Positions 13,658-24,894 of a DNA stretch of 64,000 nucleotides are shown in pieces (the stretch's first letter is position 1; every line of letters begins with the position of its first letter). The notes beneath the pieces were generated by a model, which did no database searches, had not been told where the DNA came from, and was given only the letters and a program-made list of their open reading frames with translations. Source of the stretch: Flavobacteriaceae bacterium (GTDB lineage Bacteria; Bacteroidota; Bacteroidia; Flavobacteriales; Flavobacteriaceae); the NCBI GenBank assembly GCA_002694465.1, contig NZMG01000030.1:3488-67487 (forward strand). Reading direction: 5' to 3'. The position numbers were made by a program, and so were the translations under genes.

Positions 13658-15901
13658 TTAATTCTTTTTATAACTATTGTAATACTCTTCCATTAAGTGG
13701 ATAAGAGCTGTCACAAGATCTTTAGTTTCCATTAATAAATTGAAATAAAGTGTGGTATTCTTTGGACTAGACTCTTCCGTTCTAGTTCTTTGAATTTGCT
13801 TCTCAATTTTTGCTGAGATATCTGCATAAGCCTTTTCTTTTCGGTCTAAAATACCTTCAAGTCTTTCAAAATCCTTGGTATCAAAAATATTTACAATATC
13901 CATTAGTAGGTGCTCGAATGAAGCATTTATTTCTTGAAGATCTTTAATTTGATTAAATTTTAGGGCCTTGTGATTATTGTTAACATGCTTGTAACTCTTT
14001 TTTGTTATGTATTCTAAGGACTGAGCCACATCGGTTAAATATCCAAGTATAATGATATAGAAGTTACTACCTCTTACACTTGTATCATCAAGATTTTTAA
14101 TAAAATAGAATATGTTATTTCTTAAATCTTCAATTTCATTATCGAGTTTTTCAACCCCCTTCTTTGTCTTTTTAAGTTTCTTTTCATCTTGCTTTGCAAG
14201 ACCTTTAATTACCTCTGTATAAATCTTATTTGTTCTGGAAACAACATTTGAAATGTTATTTGCACTTTCAGAAATAATTCCTTGTACCGTTTTACTTTCA
14301 GACTTTTTTAAACCAGTTTTGTCTAGTTTTTCTATTCCTTTTCTTTTATGTGACAAATAATTTCTTATTAATAATGCTAATGCGACTAATAATAGGATAG
14401 CAATAGCAGGTCCTCTTCCTATATAAATGATATAGGTTAAGGTTCCCGCGGCTAAAAAAGCACTGAATGCTGTAAAAAACCAGCCTCCAATGACGTTTAG
14501 TACTCCTGCTACTCGATATACCGCACTTTCACGCCCCCAAGCTCTATCTGCCAATGAGGTACCCATAGCTACCATAAAAGTTACATAGGTAGTGGAAAGA
14601 GGTAACTTCATTGAAGTGGCAATGGCAATAAGAATACCAGCTACCGTTAGGTTTATAGAAGCACGAATCAAATCAAATGCAGGTATTTCGTGAGCTTTAC
14701 CAGCTGGAATTTTTACCTCTGGTTTTTCGAAACTTTTCGCAATTTTATCTTGTGTTGACTGAGGTATAGCACCCCCTAATAATGAAGCTAATTTTGTACT
14801 TCCTTTAACAACAGCACGAGATAAGATGTTAGGATTAAATTTTTCTGCCCCGTCACCTTGTCTAGAGAGTCCTATTTCTGTTTCGGTAACAGTTCTTGCT
14901 TTTTTGGAAAACCAAAGTGTTAATACCATTATAGCACCAGAGACAAATAGTAAAAGAGGTTCTGCAGGGACTTTTTCTTCAAGAACATTCATTGAAAATG
15001 CATTCGCCGCTTCTCCAGAGACAGACCAAGCTTCATAACTATGGTATGCAGCCATAGGAACACCAATAAAGTTAACTAAATCGTTTCCAGAAAACGCTAA
15101 TGCTAACCCAAATGTCCCAATTGCTATTACTACCAATAGGATGCTTTTTTTAAATATTTTAGTAAATAATATTGAAAAGGCAGTCCAAAAAAGAAACCCA
15201 ATTCCTATTACTATCCAAAAATTTGTAGCTAGAATTTCTTTAAAAGCACTATAATTTGGAGCTCCTTTAAGTCCTTTAAAAAAGATAAAATAGCTAATTG
15301 CGGTTAGGGTTAAACCCCCAAAAATGGCCCCAAAATTCTTCATTTTTTGTTCGTAATGAAACGAAAATACAAGCCTAGATAACCATTGAACCAGTGCTCC
15401 TAGGGTAAAAGCAATTACTACTGAAAGTAAAATACCTGTGATAATTTCTATTGCCTTTTCAGAATTTATATAATTTCCTATATCAGCCATCGTTTCCGAA
15501 GAGGACGCGCCAATTTTTATAAGCGCCATTACTACAGTAGCACCTAGTAAAGAAAAAACTATGGATACTGTAGTGGAAGTGGGCATTCCTAGTGTATTGA
15601 AGAAATCTAGTAATAAAATATCCGTAATCATTACGGCTAAAAATATTATCATAATTTCATCAAAATAGAATTCTCCAGGGATAAAAATCCCTTTACGAGC
15701 AACTTCCATCATCCCACTGGAATAAACGGCTCCAATAAAAATTCCTAAACTCGCAACAATCATAATGGTACGGTAAGGAATAGCTTTAGAACCAATTGCA
15801 GAATTTAGAAAGTTTACAGCATCATTACTAACACCAACAACTAAATCAACAATAGCTAAAACCGCTAAAGCTACAAGCATTAAAATGTAAATATTATCCA
15901 T
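13658..15901 (-). CDS. PiT/PHO4 family inorganic phosphate transporter with PhoU-like C-terminal domain
   Basis: GVSNDAVNFLNSAIGS, GMPTSTTVSIV, GNDLVNFIGVP, LPLSTTYV signature motifs. Confidence 0.93.
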   Translation of the reverse strand: MDNIYILMLVALAVLAIVDLVVGVSNDAVNFLNSAIGSKAIPYRTIMIVASLGIFIGAVYSSGMMEVARKGIFIPGEFYFDEIMIIFLAVMITDILLLDFFNTLGMPTSTTVSIVFSLLGATVVMALIKIGASSSETMADIGNYINSEKAIEIITGILLSVVIAFTLGALVQWLSRLVFSFHYEQKMKNFGAIFGGLTLTAISYFIFFKGLKGAPNYSAFKEILATNFWIVIGIGFLFWTAFSILFTKIFKKSILLVVIAIGTFGLALAFSGNDLVNFIGVPMAAYHSYEAWSVSGEAANAFSMNVLEEKVPAEPLLLFVSGAIMVLTLWFSKKARTVTETEIGLSRQGDGAEKFNPNILSRAVVKGSTKLASLLGGAIPQSTQDKIAKSFEKPEVKIPAGKAHEIPAFDLIRASINLTVAGILIAIATSMKLPLSTTYVTFMVAMGTSLADRAWGRESAVYRVAGVLNVIGGWFFTAFSAFLAAGTLTYIIYIGRGPAIAILLLVALALLIRNYLSHKRKGIEKLDKTGLKKSESKTVQGIISESANNISNVVSRTNKIYTEVIKGLAKQDEKKLKKTKKGVEKLDNEIEDLRNNIFYFIKNLDDTSVRGSNFYIIILGYLTDVAQSLEYITKKSYKHVNNNHKALKFNQIKDLQEINASFEHLLMDIVNIFDTKDFERLEGILDRKEKAYADISAKIEKQIQRTRTEESSPKNTTLYFNLLMETKDLVTALIHLMEEYYNSYKKN

Positions 15902-15921
15902 TTTTTAAAAATTATTTTCGG

Positions 15922-15966
15922 GCAAAATTCTTAATTAATTTATGATTACCTGTTATCAAATTGTTA
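15922..15966 (-). promoter_or_regulatory. PiT promoter with Pho-box-like TAACA direct repeats
   Basis: Plus-strand TGTTA at 15951 and 15962 (11-bp spacing), 29 and 40 nt from GCAAA (the -7 TTTGC) at 15922. Confidence 0.6.
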
Positions 15967-15973
15967 CGTTTTA

Positions 15974-17176
15974 TTAAAAATGCAGGTCAAAACCTATTCT
16001 AAATTCAATGCTATCTGCATCACCTTCTAACGTAGTATAACTAACATCAGATTGAACTTTAAGTTTGTGGCCTACAATATACTTAGAAACACCTAAAGTA
16101 TACTGTTCTTCACCTAGTCTACTAGTAATGTTATTATAATCTGTATTAGTAAACCTTCCTGCAATTTCATAATTATTTTTAAATAAATAACCAGCTTGTA
16201 AATTTAATGCATTACCTACTAATACAATATCTCCAGTTTCGGTTCCGTCTGCTTCGATGGCTACAGGGTTTTCGGCATCTCTATTAGCATATTCTCCCAT
16301 AAATGAAAAACCTTTGTATTTAAACATGGTATCAATAAACAAAGTGGTAATATCGGTTTCGTATAAAGAGCCATCTTCCAAAAACATATAGGAACCTAAA
16401 TTACTTCTTGTTTTTACAGCATCTTGATTTAAATCGTAAGTTACTCCTATCATTAATTTTGGTGAAGCCTCTCTAGCTAAATCTGCTTGAAAATAATCTC
16501 CATTGGATTTAAATAATCCAAATGGAAGGAACTCTAATCTACCGGTATATTGTAACCCACCTTCATTTCCTTCGGTGATATTTCTTCCTTCTCCCTGTGA
16601 AATAGCAACTTTTTCACGAATTATAAAATCTCCGCCCAAATTTGCGTGATGACGTAATTGCATTCCTATATCGCGGTCAATATTGAAGCGGCTGTTTAGT
16701 AAGGATCGGTCTATTAATTGCATATTTGCTGAAGAAACAACACGTTCTACGTTTCCTGGCAATTTTGTTTGCCCTACCCATAATTCGAAATTTTCATAAA
16801 AATTCCACATAATTACCGCATCCAATATATATCTAGGCGTATTTCGGTTAAATTCATTTGCTCCTGATATGTCTCTATTAGAAAGACCTAATTCAATTTT
16901 ATATTCAAGTTTAGGTGAGTATGCCCATCCATCAAATTTTAAACGAGCACGTCTTATTAAAAAATTATGCTCTGGGCTATTATAATTATTACCATTATAA
17001 TCCCAGTTCGTTTCAGAACGAAATTGAATCCTTGGAGCAAATTTGATACTAAAAGTACTATCTTTTGCAGTGTAATTAATGATTCCTTTTCCAAATGAAG
17101 TGTCACTAATTTCTTGAGCTTCAATAGTAAGTGTGGAAAATAAAATTGCCAAAATGGCAAACTTTAAAAGTTTCAT
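15974..17176 (-). CDS. Phosphate-selective porin (OprO/OprP family)
   Basis: Signal peptide, FLIRRARLKFDG, VGQTKLPGNVERVVSS, C-terminal DLHF; context among Pi transporters. Start reassigned to MKLLKF (17176). Confidence 0.85.
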   Translation of the reverse strand: MKLLKFAILAILFSTLTIEAQEISDTSFGKGIINYTAKDSTFSIKFAPRIQFRSETNWDYNGNNYNSPEHNFLIRRARLKFDGWAYSPKLEYKIELGLSNRDISGANEFNRNTPRYILDAVIMWNFYENFELWVGQTKLPGNVERVVSSANMQLIDRSLLNSRFNIDRDIGMQLRHHANLGGDFIIREKVAISQGEGRNITEGNEGGLQYTGRLEFLPFGLFKSNGDYFQADLAREASPKLMIGVTYDLNQDAVKTRSNLGSYMFLEDGSLYETDITTLFIDTMFKYKGFSFMGEYANRDAENPVAIEADGTETGDIVLVGNALNLQAGYLFKNNYEIAGRFTNTDYNNITSRLGEEQYTLGVSKYIVGHKLKVQSDVSYTTLEGDADSIEFRIGFDLHF

Positions 17177-17202
17177 GTAAATCGTTTTAAGTTTTTGTCG
17201 GT

Positions 17203-17247
17203 GCAAAGAACTTAAACCAATGTTAACTGAATGTTACCTATAAGTTA
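17203..17247 (-). promoter_or_regulatory. Porin promoter with four phased Pho-box-like half-sites
   Basis: Plus-strand ACTTA 17210, TGTTA 17221, TGTTA 17232, AGTTA 17243 (all 11 bp apart), at offsets 7/18/29/40 from GCAAA at 17203. Confidence 0.65.
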
Positions 17248-17265
17248 TTTTTAAAAATATTATAC

Positions 17266-17291
17266 AAAAAGGGTCGCCCATTGGGCGACCC
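17266..17291 (-). terminator. Terminator of the candidate phosphate-island sRNA
   Basis: Perfect 9-bp GC-rich stem gggtcgccc-att-gggcgaccc, with a T run only on the minus strand. Confidence 0.85.
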
Positions 17292-17355
17292 CACACATTG
17301 ATAAAATCTAGTCGACAAAAACTTAACGATTTATATGTGTATGTGTATTAAACAC
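17266..17355 (-). ncRNA. Candidate ~90-nt antisense sRNA of the phosphate island
   Basis: Own terminator, TTTATTTG -7-like element at 17368-17361, 5' hairpin GUGU-UUAAU-ACAC, and a 25-nt stretch complementary to the porin and Na/Pi symporter 5' UTRs. Confidence 0.7.
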
Positions 17356-17478
17356 AAAAACAAATAAAGGCCATCTGTATAGCTAAATCGTCATCTAAAT
17401 ATTAAATAAATATTAAGTTTTCTCTTTAATGCTGAAAAGGCATATATAGCACTGAAAATCAGTTTAATAATAATTCAA

Positions 17479-17533
17479 TGTTAATTTAATGTTATGCAAA
17501 CCTTTATTAATTGTTACCAATTTTGTAAATTTG
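17479..17533 (+). promoter_or_regulatory. Promoter of the 17.5-kb gene overlapped by TGTTA repeats
   Basis: Exact -7 TAAATTTG at 17526-17533; TGTTA at 17479, 17490 and 17512 (11 and 22 bp spacing). Confidence 0.55.
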
Positions 17534-17552
17534 AGCTATTAACCCTTAAAAT

Positions 17553-17921
17553 ATGTTTATCATGAGAAAATTATTAGTAGTATTTACTATTTCTCTTTTA
17601 GCAGGGTCGGCTTTTTCACAAGAAAAAGTACAAGATGAATTTGTTAAAGAAGGAAAAGTGATTAAAGCTACGCTTTACCATGAAAATGGAATGGTAGCTC
17701 AAACTGGTTTTTACACATTGGATAATAAACTAGAGGGTGAATGGATAAGTTATGATGCAGTAGGAAATAAAACTGCTGTAGCTCACTACAACAAGGGAAA
17801 CAAAGTTGGTACATGGTATTTTTACCAAGGTAATGAGATTAAGGAGGTAAATTACTCCAATTCTAAAGTTGCCAAAGTGACTTCTTTTAAGATTACAGAT
17901 GCTGTTGTGATATCCAACTAA
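17553..17921 (+). CDS. Secreted MORN-variant repeat protein (YwqK-like)
   Basis: Signal peptide (start may be 17562); repeats YHENGMVAQTGFY, LEGEWISYDAVGNK, KVGTWYFY. Confidence 0.75.
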   Translation: MFIMRKLLVVFTISLLAGSAFSQEKVQDEFVKEGKVIKATLYHENGMVAQTGFYTLDNKLEGEWISYDAVGNKTAVAHYNKGNKVGTWYFYQGNEIKEVNYSNSKVAKVTSFKITDAVVISN

Positions 17922-17940
17922 AGACAAAAACTTACAAATC

Positions 17941-17972
17941 AAAAAATGCCTCAATTTTGAGGCATTTTTTGT
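17941..17972 (+). terminator. Rho-independent terminator
   Basis: aaaaaatgcctca-attt-tgaggcatttttt perfect stem. Confidence 0.88.
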
Positions 17973-18044
17973 TTATGGGATATATTTAAAACTTTAACAA
18001 AGTAATAAGATTTGAAAATTTTTAAAATATATATTTTTGGGGTC

Positions 18045-18317
18045 ATGTTAAAATCGGTTGCACATAGCTTTTTTTCGCTTTTTTTCATCATAGCGTTGTT
18101 AGGACCTTCTGTTTTTCAGTTGTGTGCTAAAGATGTTGCTCCAATTGTTATAACTATTCAGGAGGAAGAGGCGAAAGAAAAAATATTTTCAATTACCGAT
18201 TACGTTTCTCATATTCATGTTTATGTTCCCAAAAAGGAATTAAATACTGCCTACGTTGAAAGGCGCTATATACACACTTCAGAAGTTTTTCTACCTCCCC
18301 CAGAACATATTAGTTAG
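18045..18317 (+). CDS. Small uORF ending in ...EVFLPPPEHIS upstream of SulP; probably leaderless
   Basis: 90 aa from ATG 18045 (the track uses TTG 18012); hydrophobic N-terminus, acidic middle, C-terminal PPP. Exact -7 TATTTTTG at 18032-18039 puts the TSS at about the ATG. Confidence 0.7.
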   Translation: MLKSVAHSFFSLFFIIALLGPSVFQLCAKDVAPIVITIQEEEAKEKIFSITDYVSHIHVYVPKKELNTAYVERRYIHTSEVFLPPPEHIS

Positions 18318-18391
18318 TTTTTCGATTTTTTAAAAAATTAATATAAAATCTGTTTGAAAAGTATTTTTTCAAACCACTAATCTATTATAAT

Positions 18392-19984
18392 ATGTTTAAA
18401 TCGTTACGAAATGACATACCAGCGAGTATTGTCGTATTTTTTGTAGCATTGCCGTTATGTTTAGGTATTGCCCTTGCCAGTGGAGCACCTTTATTTTCAG
18501 GTTTAATTGCTGGTATTGTAGGGGGGGTTATTGTTGGATCTTTAAGTGGGTCTAAAATTGGAGTTTCTGGTCCTGCGGCAGGATTAGCAGCCATTGTATT
18601 GACAGCCATAGGAACCTTAGGTGGGTTTCAAAATTTTTTGGTGGCTGTTGTATTGGCAGGTGTAATACAGCTTTTGTTTGGAATTTTAAAAGCTGGAATT
18701 ATTGCATATTACTTTCCTTCTTCTGTGATAAAGGGAATGCTAACAGGAATAGGAATTATTATTATATTAAAACAAATCCCCCATTTTTTTGGATATGATC
18801 CAAATCCAGAAGGAGATTTTGCTTTTTTTGAAGTTTCAGGAGATAATACTTTTTCAAGTCTTATTAAGACCATTAATAACATCATCCCCGGCTCTGCCTT
18901 AATTGGTATAGTTGGCTTAGGAATATTAATCCTGTGGGAAAAAGTGTTGTCTAAAAAAGGAAAGATATTTCAATTAGTTCAAGGACCCTTGGTAGCCGTG
19001 ATTGTGGGGATTGCGTTTTATGCACTTACAAAGTCTCATGATTCACTTTCCATTGCAGGATCACATTTGGTAAGTGTACCTGTTCCAGAGGATGCCGCCT
19101 CTTTTTTAGGACAATTTAGTTTTCCAAATTTTTCAGTCATTACCCAACAAGATATTTGGATTGTGGCATTTACTTTAGCTTTGGTAGCGAGTCTTGAAAC
19201 TCTGCTTTGTGTTGAAGCAACCGATAAACTTGACCCAAATAAAAACGTTACACCTACTAATAGGGAACTTTTCGCACAAGGGGCGGGAAATATTATTTCG
19301 GGATTAATTGGAGGGTTGCCTATTACACAAGTAATTGTGAGGAGTTCTGCTAACATCCAATCTGGAGGAAAGAGTAAAATGTCCACCATTATACATGGGT
19401 TTTTCCTATTAATTTCTATCATATTGATACCAAAATTGCTTAATATGATTCCCCTTTCTGTACTTGCAGCAATTTTACTTGTGGTTGGTTATAAATTGGC
19501 AAAACCGCAATTATTTAAAAAGATGTATGATTTAGGGTGGAAACAATTTGTACCTTTTACGGTAACAGTTTTGGGGATTATTTTTATTGATCTTTTATAT
19601 GGAATAGGATTAGGATTACTAGTAGGGATTGTTGTAATTCTTATTAAAAGTTATCAAAATTCCCATTTCCTGCATAAAGAGGATGTAAGTAATGGAGTCC
19701 AGAAATTGAAAATGACGTTAGCGGAGGAAGTGACCTTTTTTAACAAAGGAGCAATATTAAAGGAATTGGATAGAATCCCTAGTGATTCATATGTTGAGTT
19801 AGACGTAAGAAAAACTCGATATTTGGATAATGATATTATTGAAATATTAGATGATTTTGCGTATAAAGCTAAGGAAAGAAATATTACGATTAAGTTAATT
19901 TCTGAAAGAGGGACGGTTGTTAACCCTCCTAGTTATATTGAATTTTTTAAATTAAGACCAGTAACCGAACAATTTACAAACTAA
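18392..19984 (+). CDS. SulP family inorganic anion (probably bicarbonate) transporter
   Basis: ALPLCLGIALASGAP..SGLIAGIVGG, VSGPAAGL, NRELFAQGAGN, C-terminal STAS-like domain; directly upstream of a carbonic anhydrase. Confidence 0.93.
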   Translation: MFKSLRNDIPASIVVFFVALPLCLGIALASGAPLFSGLIAGIVGGVIVGSLSGSKIGVSGPAAGLAAIVLTAIGTLGGFQNFLVAVVLAGVIQLLFGILKAGIIAYYFPSSVIKGMLTGIGIIIILKQIPHFFGYDPNPEGDFAFFEVSGDNTFSSLIKTINNIIPGSALIGIVGLGILILWEKVLSKKGKIFQLVQGPLVAVIVGIAFYALTKSHDSLSIAGSHLVSVPVPEDAASFLGQFSFPNFSVITQQDIWIVAFTLALVASLETLLCVEATDKLDPNKNVTPTNRELFAQGAGNIISGLIGGLPITQVIVRSSANIQSGGKSKMSTIIHGFFLLISIILIPKLLNMIPLSVLAAILLVVGYKLAKPQLFKKMYDLGWKQFVPFTVTVLGIIFIDLLYGIGLGLLVGIVVILIKSYQNSHFLHKEDVSNGVQKLKMTLAEEVTFFNKGAILKELDRIPSDSYVELDVRKTRYLDNDIIEILDDFAYKAKERNITIKLISERGTVVNPPSYIEFFKLRPVTEQFTN

Positions 19985-24757: not shown

Positions 24758-24835
24758 GCAAAGATGACCCTGTTATGTAAAGTTGATGTTAATCTAAAAT
24801 TATGATTAAGTCATTTCAAGGTTATCTAAATGTTA
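24758..24835 (-). promoter_or_regulatory. TBDR promoter with six 11-bp-phased half-sites
   Basis: Plus-strand TGTAA 24776, TGTTA 24787, AATTA 24798, AGTCA 24809, GGTTA 24820, TGTTA 24831, at offsets 18-73 from GCAAA at 24758. Confidence 0.6.
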
Positions 24836-24894
24836 AATAGTTAACCTTAAAAAAATGATTGAATTAAGTATCTTGCATCTTCAATATTTTAAGT

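What the first reader, a model, noticed from the sequence alone, without database searches (positions are those of the whole stretch)
17923..17934. Seed-complementary 12-mer in the 3' UTR of the divergent gene: possible RNA sponge
Seen: GACAAAAACTTA occurs a third time, at 17923-17934, in the short 3' UTR between the stop of the MORN-variant gene and its terminator. The same 12-mer thus appears three times within ~750 bp: the sRNA itself, the porin leader and this UTR. It is exactly complementary to the exposed loop of the sRNA. Established: 3'-UTR-derived sponge RNAs that titrate sRNAs are known in enterobacteria. Inference: this mRNA, or a processed 3' fragment, titrates the sRNA.
Basis: partly seen in the sequence, partly recalled or inferred. 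Interest (0 to 1): 0.7.

Follow-up and report, generated by a model that had tools for sequence, protein, structure and literature searches.

The report
Conserved sRNA-pairing site in 3' UTR
A 12-base stretch just after the stop codon of a small lipoprotein-like gene is frozen across a clade of marine flavobacteria and perfectly matches the seed of a neighbouring, undescribed small RNA that also pairs with the start of a phosphate-porin mRNA, so it is a good but untested candidate for an RNA decoy ("sponge").

Summary
GACAAAAACTTA occurs exactly three times in the 3.24 Mb genome, all within 750 bp: the 5' end of a phosphate-porin (Porin_O_P) mRNA, a candidate sRNA gene (which carries the complement), and the 3' UTR of the divergent MORN-like gene.

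The sRNA looks real by comparison, though no expression data were available.
- It is about 91 nt, on the minus strand, at about 17355..17265.
- It has a conserved -7 promoter box, an invariant seed and a terminator with compensatory changes.
- The sRNA/leader pair occurs in 107 of 401 genomes of the family. It has no Rfam match.
- It co-evolves with the porin 5' UTR and start codon.

The UTR copy is restricted to the Halomarinibacterium clade, where it is invariant in all 14 lineages examined (MORN-like protein 64-99% identical).
- Only 13% of third codon positions are invariant, and no run in the coding sequence exceeds 9 nt.
- The copy is unpaired and sits 8-14 nt before a variable terminator.
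- It stays matched to the sRNA in two lineages where the porin leader drifted.

It is therefore almost certainly a selected site, most likely an sRNA-pairing site. The 12-bp duplex is also much weaker than the leader duplex.

The parts
17923..17934 (+). The finding: GACAAAAACTTA in the 3' UTR of the MORN-like gene, 1 nt after the stop. It is the candidate sRNA-pairing (decoy or target) site.
   Evidence: Invariant in all 14 lineages of the clade, this genome included. Unpaired in the MFE fold, opening energy 0.1 kcal/mol.
17940..17975 (+). Intrinsic terminator of the MORN-like gene: A-tract, 14-bp hairpin, U-tract. It is also terminator-like on the other strand.
   Evidence: z -4.2. The stem sequence differs between orthologues while pairing is kept.
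17562..17921 (+). 119-aa secreted or lipoprotein-like protein with a weak MORN_2 repeat match. It is divergent from the porin and syntenic across the family.
   Evidence: (MORN_2 E 0.0023, below the cut-off).
17526..17533 (+). TAAATTTG, a -7 promoter box of Bacteroidota type for the MORN-like gene.
   Evidence: Conserved in the clade. The consensus TAnnTTTG is given in PMC9723704.
17477..17495 (+). Box (b): direct repeat AATGTTAA-TTT-AATGTTAT with 11-bp period, Pho-box-like, 30 nt upstream of the MORN -7 box.
   Evidence: Its function is inferred.
17398..17417 (-). Box (c): TTAATAT-TTAT-TTAATAT direct repeat, 29 nt upstream of the sRNA -7 box.
   Evidence: Its function is inferred.
17361..17368 (-). 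TTTATTTG, the likely -7 box of the sRNA promoter.
   Evidence: It sits at the same spacing from box (c) as GATATTTG-type boxes in other genera. It is one mismatch from TAnnTTTG.
17265..17355 (-). Candidate trans-acting sRNA of about 91 nt: 5' hairpin, central hairpin presenting UAAGUUUUUGUC, and an intrinsic terminator at 17292-17270 followed by UUUUUG. The 5' end is inferred.
   Evidence: No Rfam match.
17314..17325 (-). sRNA seed UAAGUUUUUGUC, the complement of the 12-mer.
   Evidence: CTAGTCGACAAAAACTTAA is invariant in 11 lineages.
17219..17237 (-). Box (a): GTAACAT-TCAG-TTAACAT direct repeat overlapping the -35 region of the porin promoter, followed by the -7 box TTCTTTG at 17210-17204.
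   Evidence: The same layout is seen at the mapped F. psychrophilum oprP promoter (PMC9723704 supplement).
17188..17199 (-). GACAAAAACTTA at the predicted 5' end of the porin mRNA. The sRNA pairing continues with AACGAUUU and reaches nearly to the AUG at 17176.
   Evidence: duplex -19 to -27 kcal/mol; co-evolution.
15974..17176 (-). Phosphate-selective porin (Porin_O_P), followed by a PHO4-family phosphate transporter at 13658-15901.

Best explanation
The 12-mer is a selected base-pairing site for the adjacent sRNA, carried on the 3' end of the MORN-like mRNA.

The module, as I read it:
- A roughly 91-nt sRNA is transcribed towards the porin gene and ends at its own terminator.
- Its invariant seed pairs with the first 12 nt of the porin mRNA, and a second block pairs with the leader just before the start codon. 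This should block translation initiation of the phosphate porin.
- In the Halomarinibacterium clade, the short 3' UTR of the divergently transcribed MORN-like gene has acquired a perfect copy of those first 12 nt. The copy is displayed single-stranded just 5' of a strong terminator.
- I favour a decoy role. When the MORN-like gene is transcribed, its 3' end (on the mRNA or on a 3' fragment) competes with the porin leader for the sRNA seed. This would buffer or relieve porin repression.
- The MORN-like promoter carries the same Pho-box-like repeat as the porin promoter, so this would probably happen under phosphate limitation.

Shown: sequence, uniqueness, conservation, accessibility, complementarity, and sRNA/leader co-evolution.

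Inferred: transcription of the sRNA, its 5' end, repression of the porin, Pho control, and any titration.
For: - Uniqueness and clustering of the 12-mer.
- sRNA support: terminator with 8 compensatory pairs and an invariant core in 17 sequences; a conserved -7 box at fixed spacing.
- The leader/sRNA pair is present in 107 of 401 family genomes and 91 of 302 genera, against 1 for the control pattern.
- Copy 2 mimics the porin leader through the ATG, but no ORF follows it.
- Cognate sRNA:leader duplexes average -21.7 kcal/mol against -17.3 for non-cognate pairs; 0 of 5000 permutations reach the observed value.
- The UTR site is invariant in all 14 lineages of the clade (64-99% protein identity). 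Third codon positions are invariant at 15 of 119, four-fold sites at 2 of 25, and the longest invariant run in the CDS is 9 nt.
- The spacer and terminator stem around the site vary.
- In L054 and L055 the porin leader lost the TTA, but the sRNA and the UTR kept it.
- Lineages whose sRNA seed reads CTAA lack the UTR copy.
- The site is unpaired in all six orthologues folded.
- The F. psychrophilum oprP TSS map supports a 5' UTR of about 21 nt, hence the 12-mer at the mRNA 5' end.
Against:
- Neither partner varies within the clade, so there is conservation but no covariation for the sRNA:UTR pair.
- Pairing is only 12 AU-rich bp: -12.2 kcal/mol for the duplex and cofold ddG -6.6, against -16.5 for the leader. 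A decoy would need to be abundant.
- Pairing is not extended in any lineage.
- 12-nt complements to the sRNA are common genome-wide.
- No internal promoter motif is present in the 3' part of the gene.
- The sRNA/porin pair works without any UTR copy in most of the family.
- No sponge RNA is described for Bacteroidota in the library searched.
Confidence: 0.42

Rival explanations
1. Regulatory target rather than sponge. The sRNA pairs with the 3' UTR site to change the fate of the MORN-like mRNA, for example its 3' end stability, decay coupled to the sRNA, or interference with terminating ribosomes, since the site starts 0-5 nt after the stop. The porin and its syntenic partner would then be co-regulated by one sRNA.
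For: The conservation, complementarity and accessibility evidence is the same as for the decoy model. The MORN-like gene is syntenic with the porin and sRNA in at least 19 loci of many genera, which suggests a functional link. The site always lies within 5 nt of the stop codon.
Against: Pairing in a 3' UTR cannot block initiation. Known cases of 3' UTR targeting are few (own knowledge). UTR length is about the same (24-27 nt to the stem) in relatives without the site, so closeness to the stop may be incidental. No RNA data.
Confidence: 0.25
2. DNA-level element. The three copies are operators for one DNA-binding protein, for example a repressor at the porin +1 with auxiliary sites 125 bp and 735 bp away that allow looping. 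Alternatively they are recombination sites.
For: Double-stranded DNA carries the motif at all three places. Copy 1 sits at the predicted porin TSS, a classic repressor position. The core GACAAAAAC is invariant across genera even where RNA pairing alone would tolerate compensated change.
Against: - The motif is not palindromic or repeated internally.
- Copy 2 lies in the middle of a unit with its own promoter box and a covarying terminator.
- The copy 1 / copy 2 resemblance extends through the start codon and co-evolves lineage by lineage, which an operator does not require.
- Every locus read has the same orientation and order, so no inversion or deletion variant was seen.
- No recombinase is evident among the six flanking ORFs; Pfam was run on five of them.
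Confidence: 0.1
3. RNA motif recognised by a protein or the ribosome. The A-rich GACAAAAACUUA is bound in the porin 5' end and in the MORN 3' UTR by the same RNA-binding factor, independently of the sRNA.
For: Bacteroidota lack Shine-Dalgarno-led initiation and use A-rich unstructured leaders (own knowledge). The same 12 nt occur at an mRNA 5' end and in a 3' UTR.
Against: In L054 and L055 the leader copy drifted while the UTR copy stayed identical to the sRNA gene copy. The presence of the UTR copy follows the sRNA seed variant (CTTA or CTAA). No candidate protein is known.
Confidence: 0.08
4. Cis-only reading of the upstream element. The 'sRNA' is just an attenuated leader of the porin operon, and the UTR copy is a relic with no partner in trans.
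For: The sRNA unit lies on the same strand directly upstream of the porin, so read-through transcripts would fold the anti-leader onto the leader.
Against: A separate porin promoter (a Pho-box-like repeat plus a -7 box) lies between the terminator and the leader, as at the mapped F. psychrophilum oprP TSS. A relic would not stay invariant in 14 lineages at near-saturated neutral divergence.
Confidence: 0.05

Closest known systems
ChiX (MicM) sRNA, chiP porin mRNA and the chbBC decoy of Salmonella and E. coli (own knowledge: Figueroa-Bossi et al. 2009; Overgaard et al. 2009)
   Same: An sRNA pairs with the 5' UTR of a substrate-specific porin mRNA. A second, co-inducible mRNA carries a short site for the same seed that can relieve porin silencing. 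This is a three-part logic of sRNA, target and decoy.
   Different: - The known decoy lies between cistrons, not in a 3' UTR before a terminator.
- The known system depends on Hfq, which Bacteroidota lack.
- Here all three parts sit within 800 bp.
- Nothing here has been tested experimentally, and there is no sequence relationship.
3'-derived sponge RNAs of enterobacteria: SroC against GcvB, and 3'ETS-leuZ against RyhB and RybB (own knowledge: Miyakoshi et al. 2015; Lalaouna et al. 2015)
   Same: A single-stranded site complementary to an sRNA seed, on an RNA piece that ends in a stable terminator or processed 3' end.
   Different: Those are shown to be processed by RNase E, to be abundant and to lower sRNA level or activity. 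Here no fragment, processing site or internal promoter has been demonstrated, and pairing is only 12 bp.
Bacteroides thetaiotaomicron base-pairing sRNAs such as GibS and MasB, and the RbpB-associated sRNAs (PMC7366714 and PMC11697453, listed; not read in detail)
   Same: The same phylum. These are Hfq-independent sRNAs with an intrinsic terminator and a single-stranded seed that pair around 5' UTRs and start codons.
   Different: Unrelated sequences and targets. No sponge or decoy has been reported. The present sRNA is confined to Flavobacteriaceae and tied to a Pho-type porin.
Rfp sRNAs of Flavobacterium psychrophilum (PMC9723704)
   Same: The same family of bacteria. These are independent short transcripts with TAnnTTTG promoters, some conserved beyond the species.
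   Different: That paper's oprP has a different leader (gcttaaaacaaga) and sits next to pstS. No counterpart of this sRNA was identified in what I read.

Membership tests
sRNA sponge / decoy RNA | Carries a site complementary to the same seed the sRNA uses on its targets | tested here: met
   12 of 12 complementary to UAAGUUUUUGUC, the stretch that pairs with the porin mRNA 5' end.
sRNA sponge / decoy RNA | The site is accessible and under selection | tested here: met
   Opening energy 0.1-1.2 kcal/mol in six orthologues. Invariant in 14 lineages against 13% invariant third codon positions.
sRNA sponge / decoy RNA | Expressed at levels that can titrate the sRNA; altering it changes sRNA level or activity | not testable with these tools
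This needs Northern blots, RNA-seq and genetics.
3' UTR-derived small RNA | Lies between a stop codon and an intrinsic terminator | tested here: met
   Stop at 17919-17921, site at 17923-17934, hairpin at 17940-17971.
3' UTR-derived small RNA | Made by an internal promoter or by processing | tested here: inconclusive
   No TAnnTTTG box on the + strand between 17534 and 18031. Processing cannot be assessed without RNA ends.
Trans-acting base-pairing sRNA (the minus-strand unit 17355-17265) | An independent non-coding unit with its own promoter and terminator | tested here: met
   Conserved -7 box at fixed spacing. Terminator with 8 compensated pairs. Only a 3-7 codon ORF is possible on the opposite strand in other genera. 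Transcription itself has not been shown.
Trans-acting base-pairing sRNA (the minus-strand unit 17355-17265) | Complementarity to the target is maintained by co-evolution | tested here: met
   Cognate duplexes -21.7 against non-cognate -17.3 kcal/mol over 27 lineages; 0 of 5000 permutations reach the observed value.
Any Rfam 15 family | Covariance-model match | tested here: not met
   Only chance-level hits at E 0.04 or above, all far below the gathering scores, over 15500-19500.
Invertible promoter / inverton | Inverted repeats flank a segment found in both orientations, with a recombinase | tested here: not met
   The inverted repeats exist. Every relative's locus read has the same orientation, and the many family genomes listed show the same layout. 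No recombinase is evident among the six flanking ORFs, five of which were scanned with Pfam. Read-level heterogeneity could not be checked.

The most novel reading that the evidence does not exclude
This would be the first RNA decoy (sponge) in Bacteroidota. A PhoB-type regulator would drive three adjacent promoters: the porin, an anti-porin sRNA and the MORN-like gene. The 3' end of the MORN-like mRNA would mimic the first 12 nt of the porin mRNA to soak up the sRNA. The result would be a self-contained 800-bp threshold circuit for phosphate-porin expression, working without Hfq. It would be built on an undescribed sRNA family present in roughly a quarter or more of Flavobacteriaceae genomes.
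Probability: 0.3. Interest if true: 0.75.

Novelty: new member of a known kind. Interest (0 to 1): 0.6.

Why it matters
RNA regulation in Bacteroidota is poorly charted. The phylum lacks Hfq and ProQ, and I found no sponge or decoy RNA described for it.

This locus offers a compact, comparatively well-supported test bed: an undescribed sRNA family tied to a phosphate porin across at least 91 genera of Flavobacteriaceae. In one marine clade it also has a third, perfectly frozen partner site.

If the site works as a decoy, it would show that the sRNA / target / mimic logic known from enterobacterial chitoporin control arose independently in a phylum with different RNA chaperones. It would also link that logic to phosphate acquisition in abundant marine heterotrophs.

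Even if the site is 'only' a 3' UTR target, it is a rare, clean case of a strongly selected 3' UTR pairing site.

Tried and rejected
- Chance. Rejected: only 3 copies in the genome, all within 750 bp, and extreme conservation.
- A known RNA family. No credible Rfam hit.
- Ranking the UTR site as an outstanding predicted target by hybridisation energy or match length. This failed: many genomic windows give -22 kcal/mol or better with duplexfold, and 34 sites have 12 nt or more of contiguous complement, within the range of shuffled controls. The first full-genome duplex scan timed out.
- A coding role for copy 2. Rejected: in other genera its ATG is followed by only a 3-7 codon ORF (MKY* in several).
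- Inverton or deletion by the repeats. No orientation variant was found in any relative.
- A third copy elsewhere in other genera. None within the 3-kb loci. Genome-wide counts of GACAAAAACTWA are at control level.
- RNA-seq evidence.
- Genome-wide support for the 'Pho box'. The TTAACAT-N4-TTAACAT scan gave few clean hits. The best one outside this locus lies upstream of a TonB-dependent-receptor-like gene. Pho control therefore remains an inference from the gene content (Porin_O_P and PHO4) and from the similar mapped oprP promoter of F. psychrophilum.
- A literature search for a flavobacterial Pho box found nothing useful.
- Earlier scan notes: none relevant.

Full report
**The observation**

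The 12-mer GACAAAAACTTA is exact at 17188-17199 (minus strand), 17314-17325 (plus) and 17923-17934 (plus). A search of the whole 3.24 Mb assembly finds only these three copies. The reversed control pattern occurs once. Three copies within 750 bp cannot be chance. The third copy starts one base after the TAA stop (17919-17921) of a 119-aa ORF. It ends 5 nt before an extended terminator hairpin at 17940-17971 followed by a U-run.

**The surroundings**

- The minus-strand gene starting at 17176 is a phosphate-selective porin (Pfam Porin_O_P, E 7e-11). It is followed by a PHO4-family phosphate transporter.
- The plus-strand 119-aa protein has a signal-peptide-like N-terminus and only a weak MORN_2 match.
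- The nearest named relative is Halomarinibacterium sedimenti CAU 1614, family Flavobacteriaceae. Its protein is 99% identical and its locus 98% identical.
- The 376-bp divergent intergenic region contains a strong minus-strand intrinsic terminator at 17292-17270 plus UUUUUG.
- It also contains three direct repeats of ATGTTAA/ATATTAA type with an 11-bp period, at 17219-17237, 17398-17417 and 17477-17495.
- The first repeat overlaps the -35 region of a porin promoter whose -7 box is TTCTTTG (17210-17204).
- The experimentally mapped oprP promoter of Flavobacterium psychrophilum has the same layout (TTAACAAtttaATAACAT ... TCTTTGTG) and a 21-nt 5' UTR (supplement of PMC9723704).
- By analogy, the porin mRNA here starts at about 17197-17199. 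The 12-mer would then be its first 12 nucleotides. This step is an inference.

**The sRNA**

Copies 1 and 2 belong to a longer imperfect inverted repeat, AAATCGTT[TT]AAGTTTTTGTCG. In other genera the plus-strand copy reads GTAGTCGACAAAAACTAATAGATTATATGAAAT. It therefore mimics the porin leader through the ATG, yet only a 3-7 codon ORF follows it (MKY* in several genera). The sensible reading is a minus-strand RNA antisense to the porin 5' UTR and start codon.

Comparative evidence for such a unit is good.
- A -7 box (TTTATTTG here, 17368-17361; GATATTTG-like elsewhere) sits 29 nt downstream of the ATATTAA-type repeat in all genera examined.
- In a 17-sequence alignment the core AGTTTTTGTC is invariant. 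The terminator stem has 8 pairs with compensatory double changes.
- The strict pattern AGTTTTTGTC-N98-128-GACAAAAACT occurs in 107 of 401 sampled family genomes and 91 of 302 genera. The reversed control occurs in one.
- The predicted RNA (about 17355..17265, 91 nt) folds into a 5' hairpin, a central hairpin whose apical part carries UAAGUUUUUGUC, and the terminator. For a 117-nt version starting further upstream (17378..17262) the z-score is -4.7. The opening cost of the seed is 2.1 kcal/mol.
- There is no Rfam match.
- Across 27 lineages, each sRNA pairs better with its own porin leader than with leaders of other lineages: mean -21.7 against -17.3 kcal/mol, with 0 of 5000 permutations as good. 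Neutral drift from a common ancestor would not produce this, so the two co-evolve.

A separate porin promoter lies between the terminator and the leader. The element is therefore best read as a trans-acting sRNA rather than only an attenuated leader. Transcription itself was not verified.

**The third copy**

- In the six species of the genus, the UTR reads TAA, then 1-4 A, then GACAAAAACTTA, then an A-rich spacer, then a terminator whose stem differs between species.
- Three metagenomic relatives (85, 78 and 64% protein identity) carry the perfect 12-mer, 0-5 nt after the stop. So do five further GTDB species, three of which the sampled set places in other genera (78 to 64% identity).
- Over 11 lineages, only 15 of 119 third codon positions and 2 of 25 four-fold sites are invariant. 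The longest invariant run in the whole coding sequence is 9 nt.
- The only comparably frozen stretch in the locus is the sRNA seed, CTAGTCGACAAAAACTTAA.
- The site is unpaired in all six orthologues folded.

Two observations tie it to the sRNA rather than to the porin leader.
- In L054 and L055 the leader has drifted (CTAA and CAAC), while the sRNA gene and the UTR both keep CTTA.
- Lineages whose sRNA seed is of the CTAA type lack any UTR copy. These are G012 at 60% identity, Ulvibacter, Patiriisocius and the other genera examined. Their UTRs are nevertheless of similar length.

The site thus arose in place, in a UTR of about 25 nt, at the base of the Halomarinibacterium clade.

**Limits**

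- Neither partner varies, so there is no covariation for the sRNA:UTR pair.
- The duplex is 12 AU-rich base pairs (-12.2 kcal/mol). Cofolding gives a gain of 6.6 kcal/mol, against 16.5 for the porin leader.
- Pairing is never extended in any lineage.
- A 12-nt complement to the sRNA centre is common in the genome (34 sites, within shuffled controls).
- No promoter box lies inside the 3' part of the gene, so any 3' fragment would have to come from processing.

**Mechanism**

I consider it very likely (about 0.7) that the 12-mer is an sRNA-pairing site on the 3' end of the MORN-like mRNA.

Within that, I favour a decoy role (0.42 overall). The site is an exact mimic of the porin mRNA 5' end, presented single-stranded before a stabilising terminator. 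It sits on a transcript whose promoter carries the same repeat as the porin promoter. The closest precedent for the logic is ChiX / chiP / chbBC in enterobacteria.

The main rival (0.25) is that the sRNA uses the site to control the MORN-like mRNA. A DNA operator reading (0.1) is weakened by three points.
- The sRNA unit has its own promoter and a covarying terminator.
- The leader and the sRNA co-evolve.
- No orientation variants were found.

A protein-binding RNA motif (0.08) does not explain why the UTR copy follows the sRNA seed variant.

**Novelty and verdict**

The kinds of thing are known: sRNA control of a porin, and mRNA-borne decoys. The sRNA family is undescribed in Rfam and in the literature I could search. 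A decoy would be new for the phylum. I rate it a new member of a known kind, with interest 0.6.

Noticed in passing
window 17265-17355 (- strand); related loci L005-L024, L034-L064: An undescribed sRNA family, antisense mimic of the 5' UTR and start codon of a Porin_O_P gene. The strict leader/sRNA pattern occurs in 107 of 401 sampled Flavobacteriaceae genomes (91 of 302 genera). It has no Rfam match. One genome (G224) has two copies of the module.
   Followed up: yes
window 17219-17237, 17398-17417, 17477-17495: Three conserved direct repeats with an 11-bp period (ATGTTAA-N4-ATGTTA, and an ATATTAA variant), placed at the porin, sRNA and MORN-like promoters. They look like binding sites of an OmpR/PhoB-type regulator, i.e. 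a candidate flavobacterial Pho box.
   Followed up: partly
window about 24775-24840 (genome C30:28262-28323, - strand): Two tandem TTAACAT-type repeats about 56 nt upstream of a gene for a protein of more than 800 aa that resembles a TonB-dependent receptor. It may be another member of the same regulon.
   Followed up: no
window 17940-17975: The terminator of the MORN-like gene has an A-tract before and a T-tract after the hairpin, so it looks bidirectional. No convergent gene is present.
   Followed up: no
window 18046-18317 (+): A small ORF of about 89 aa with no Pfam match, between the MORN-like gene and a SulP-family transporter. Its status as a gene is unknown.
   Followed up: no
L010 (G012) 3' UTR after the MORN-like stop: The sister genus has AGATAATTAAAGTTAAC where the clade has AGACAAAAACTTAA. 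This may be a decayed or precursor form of the site, or only A-rich resemblance. Its sRNA seed has CTAA instead of CTTA.
   Followed up: partly
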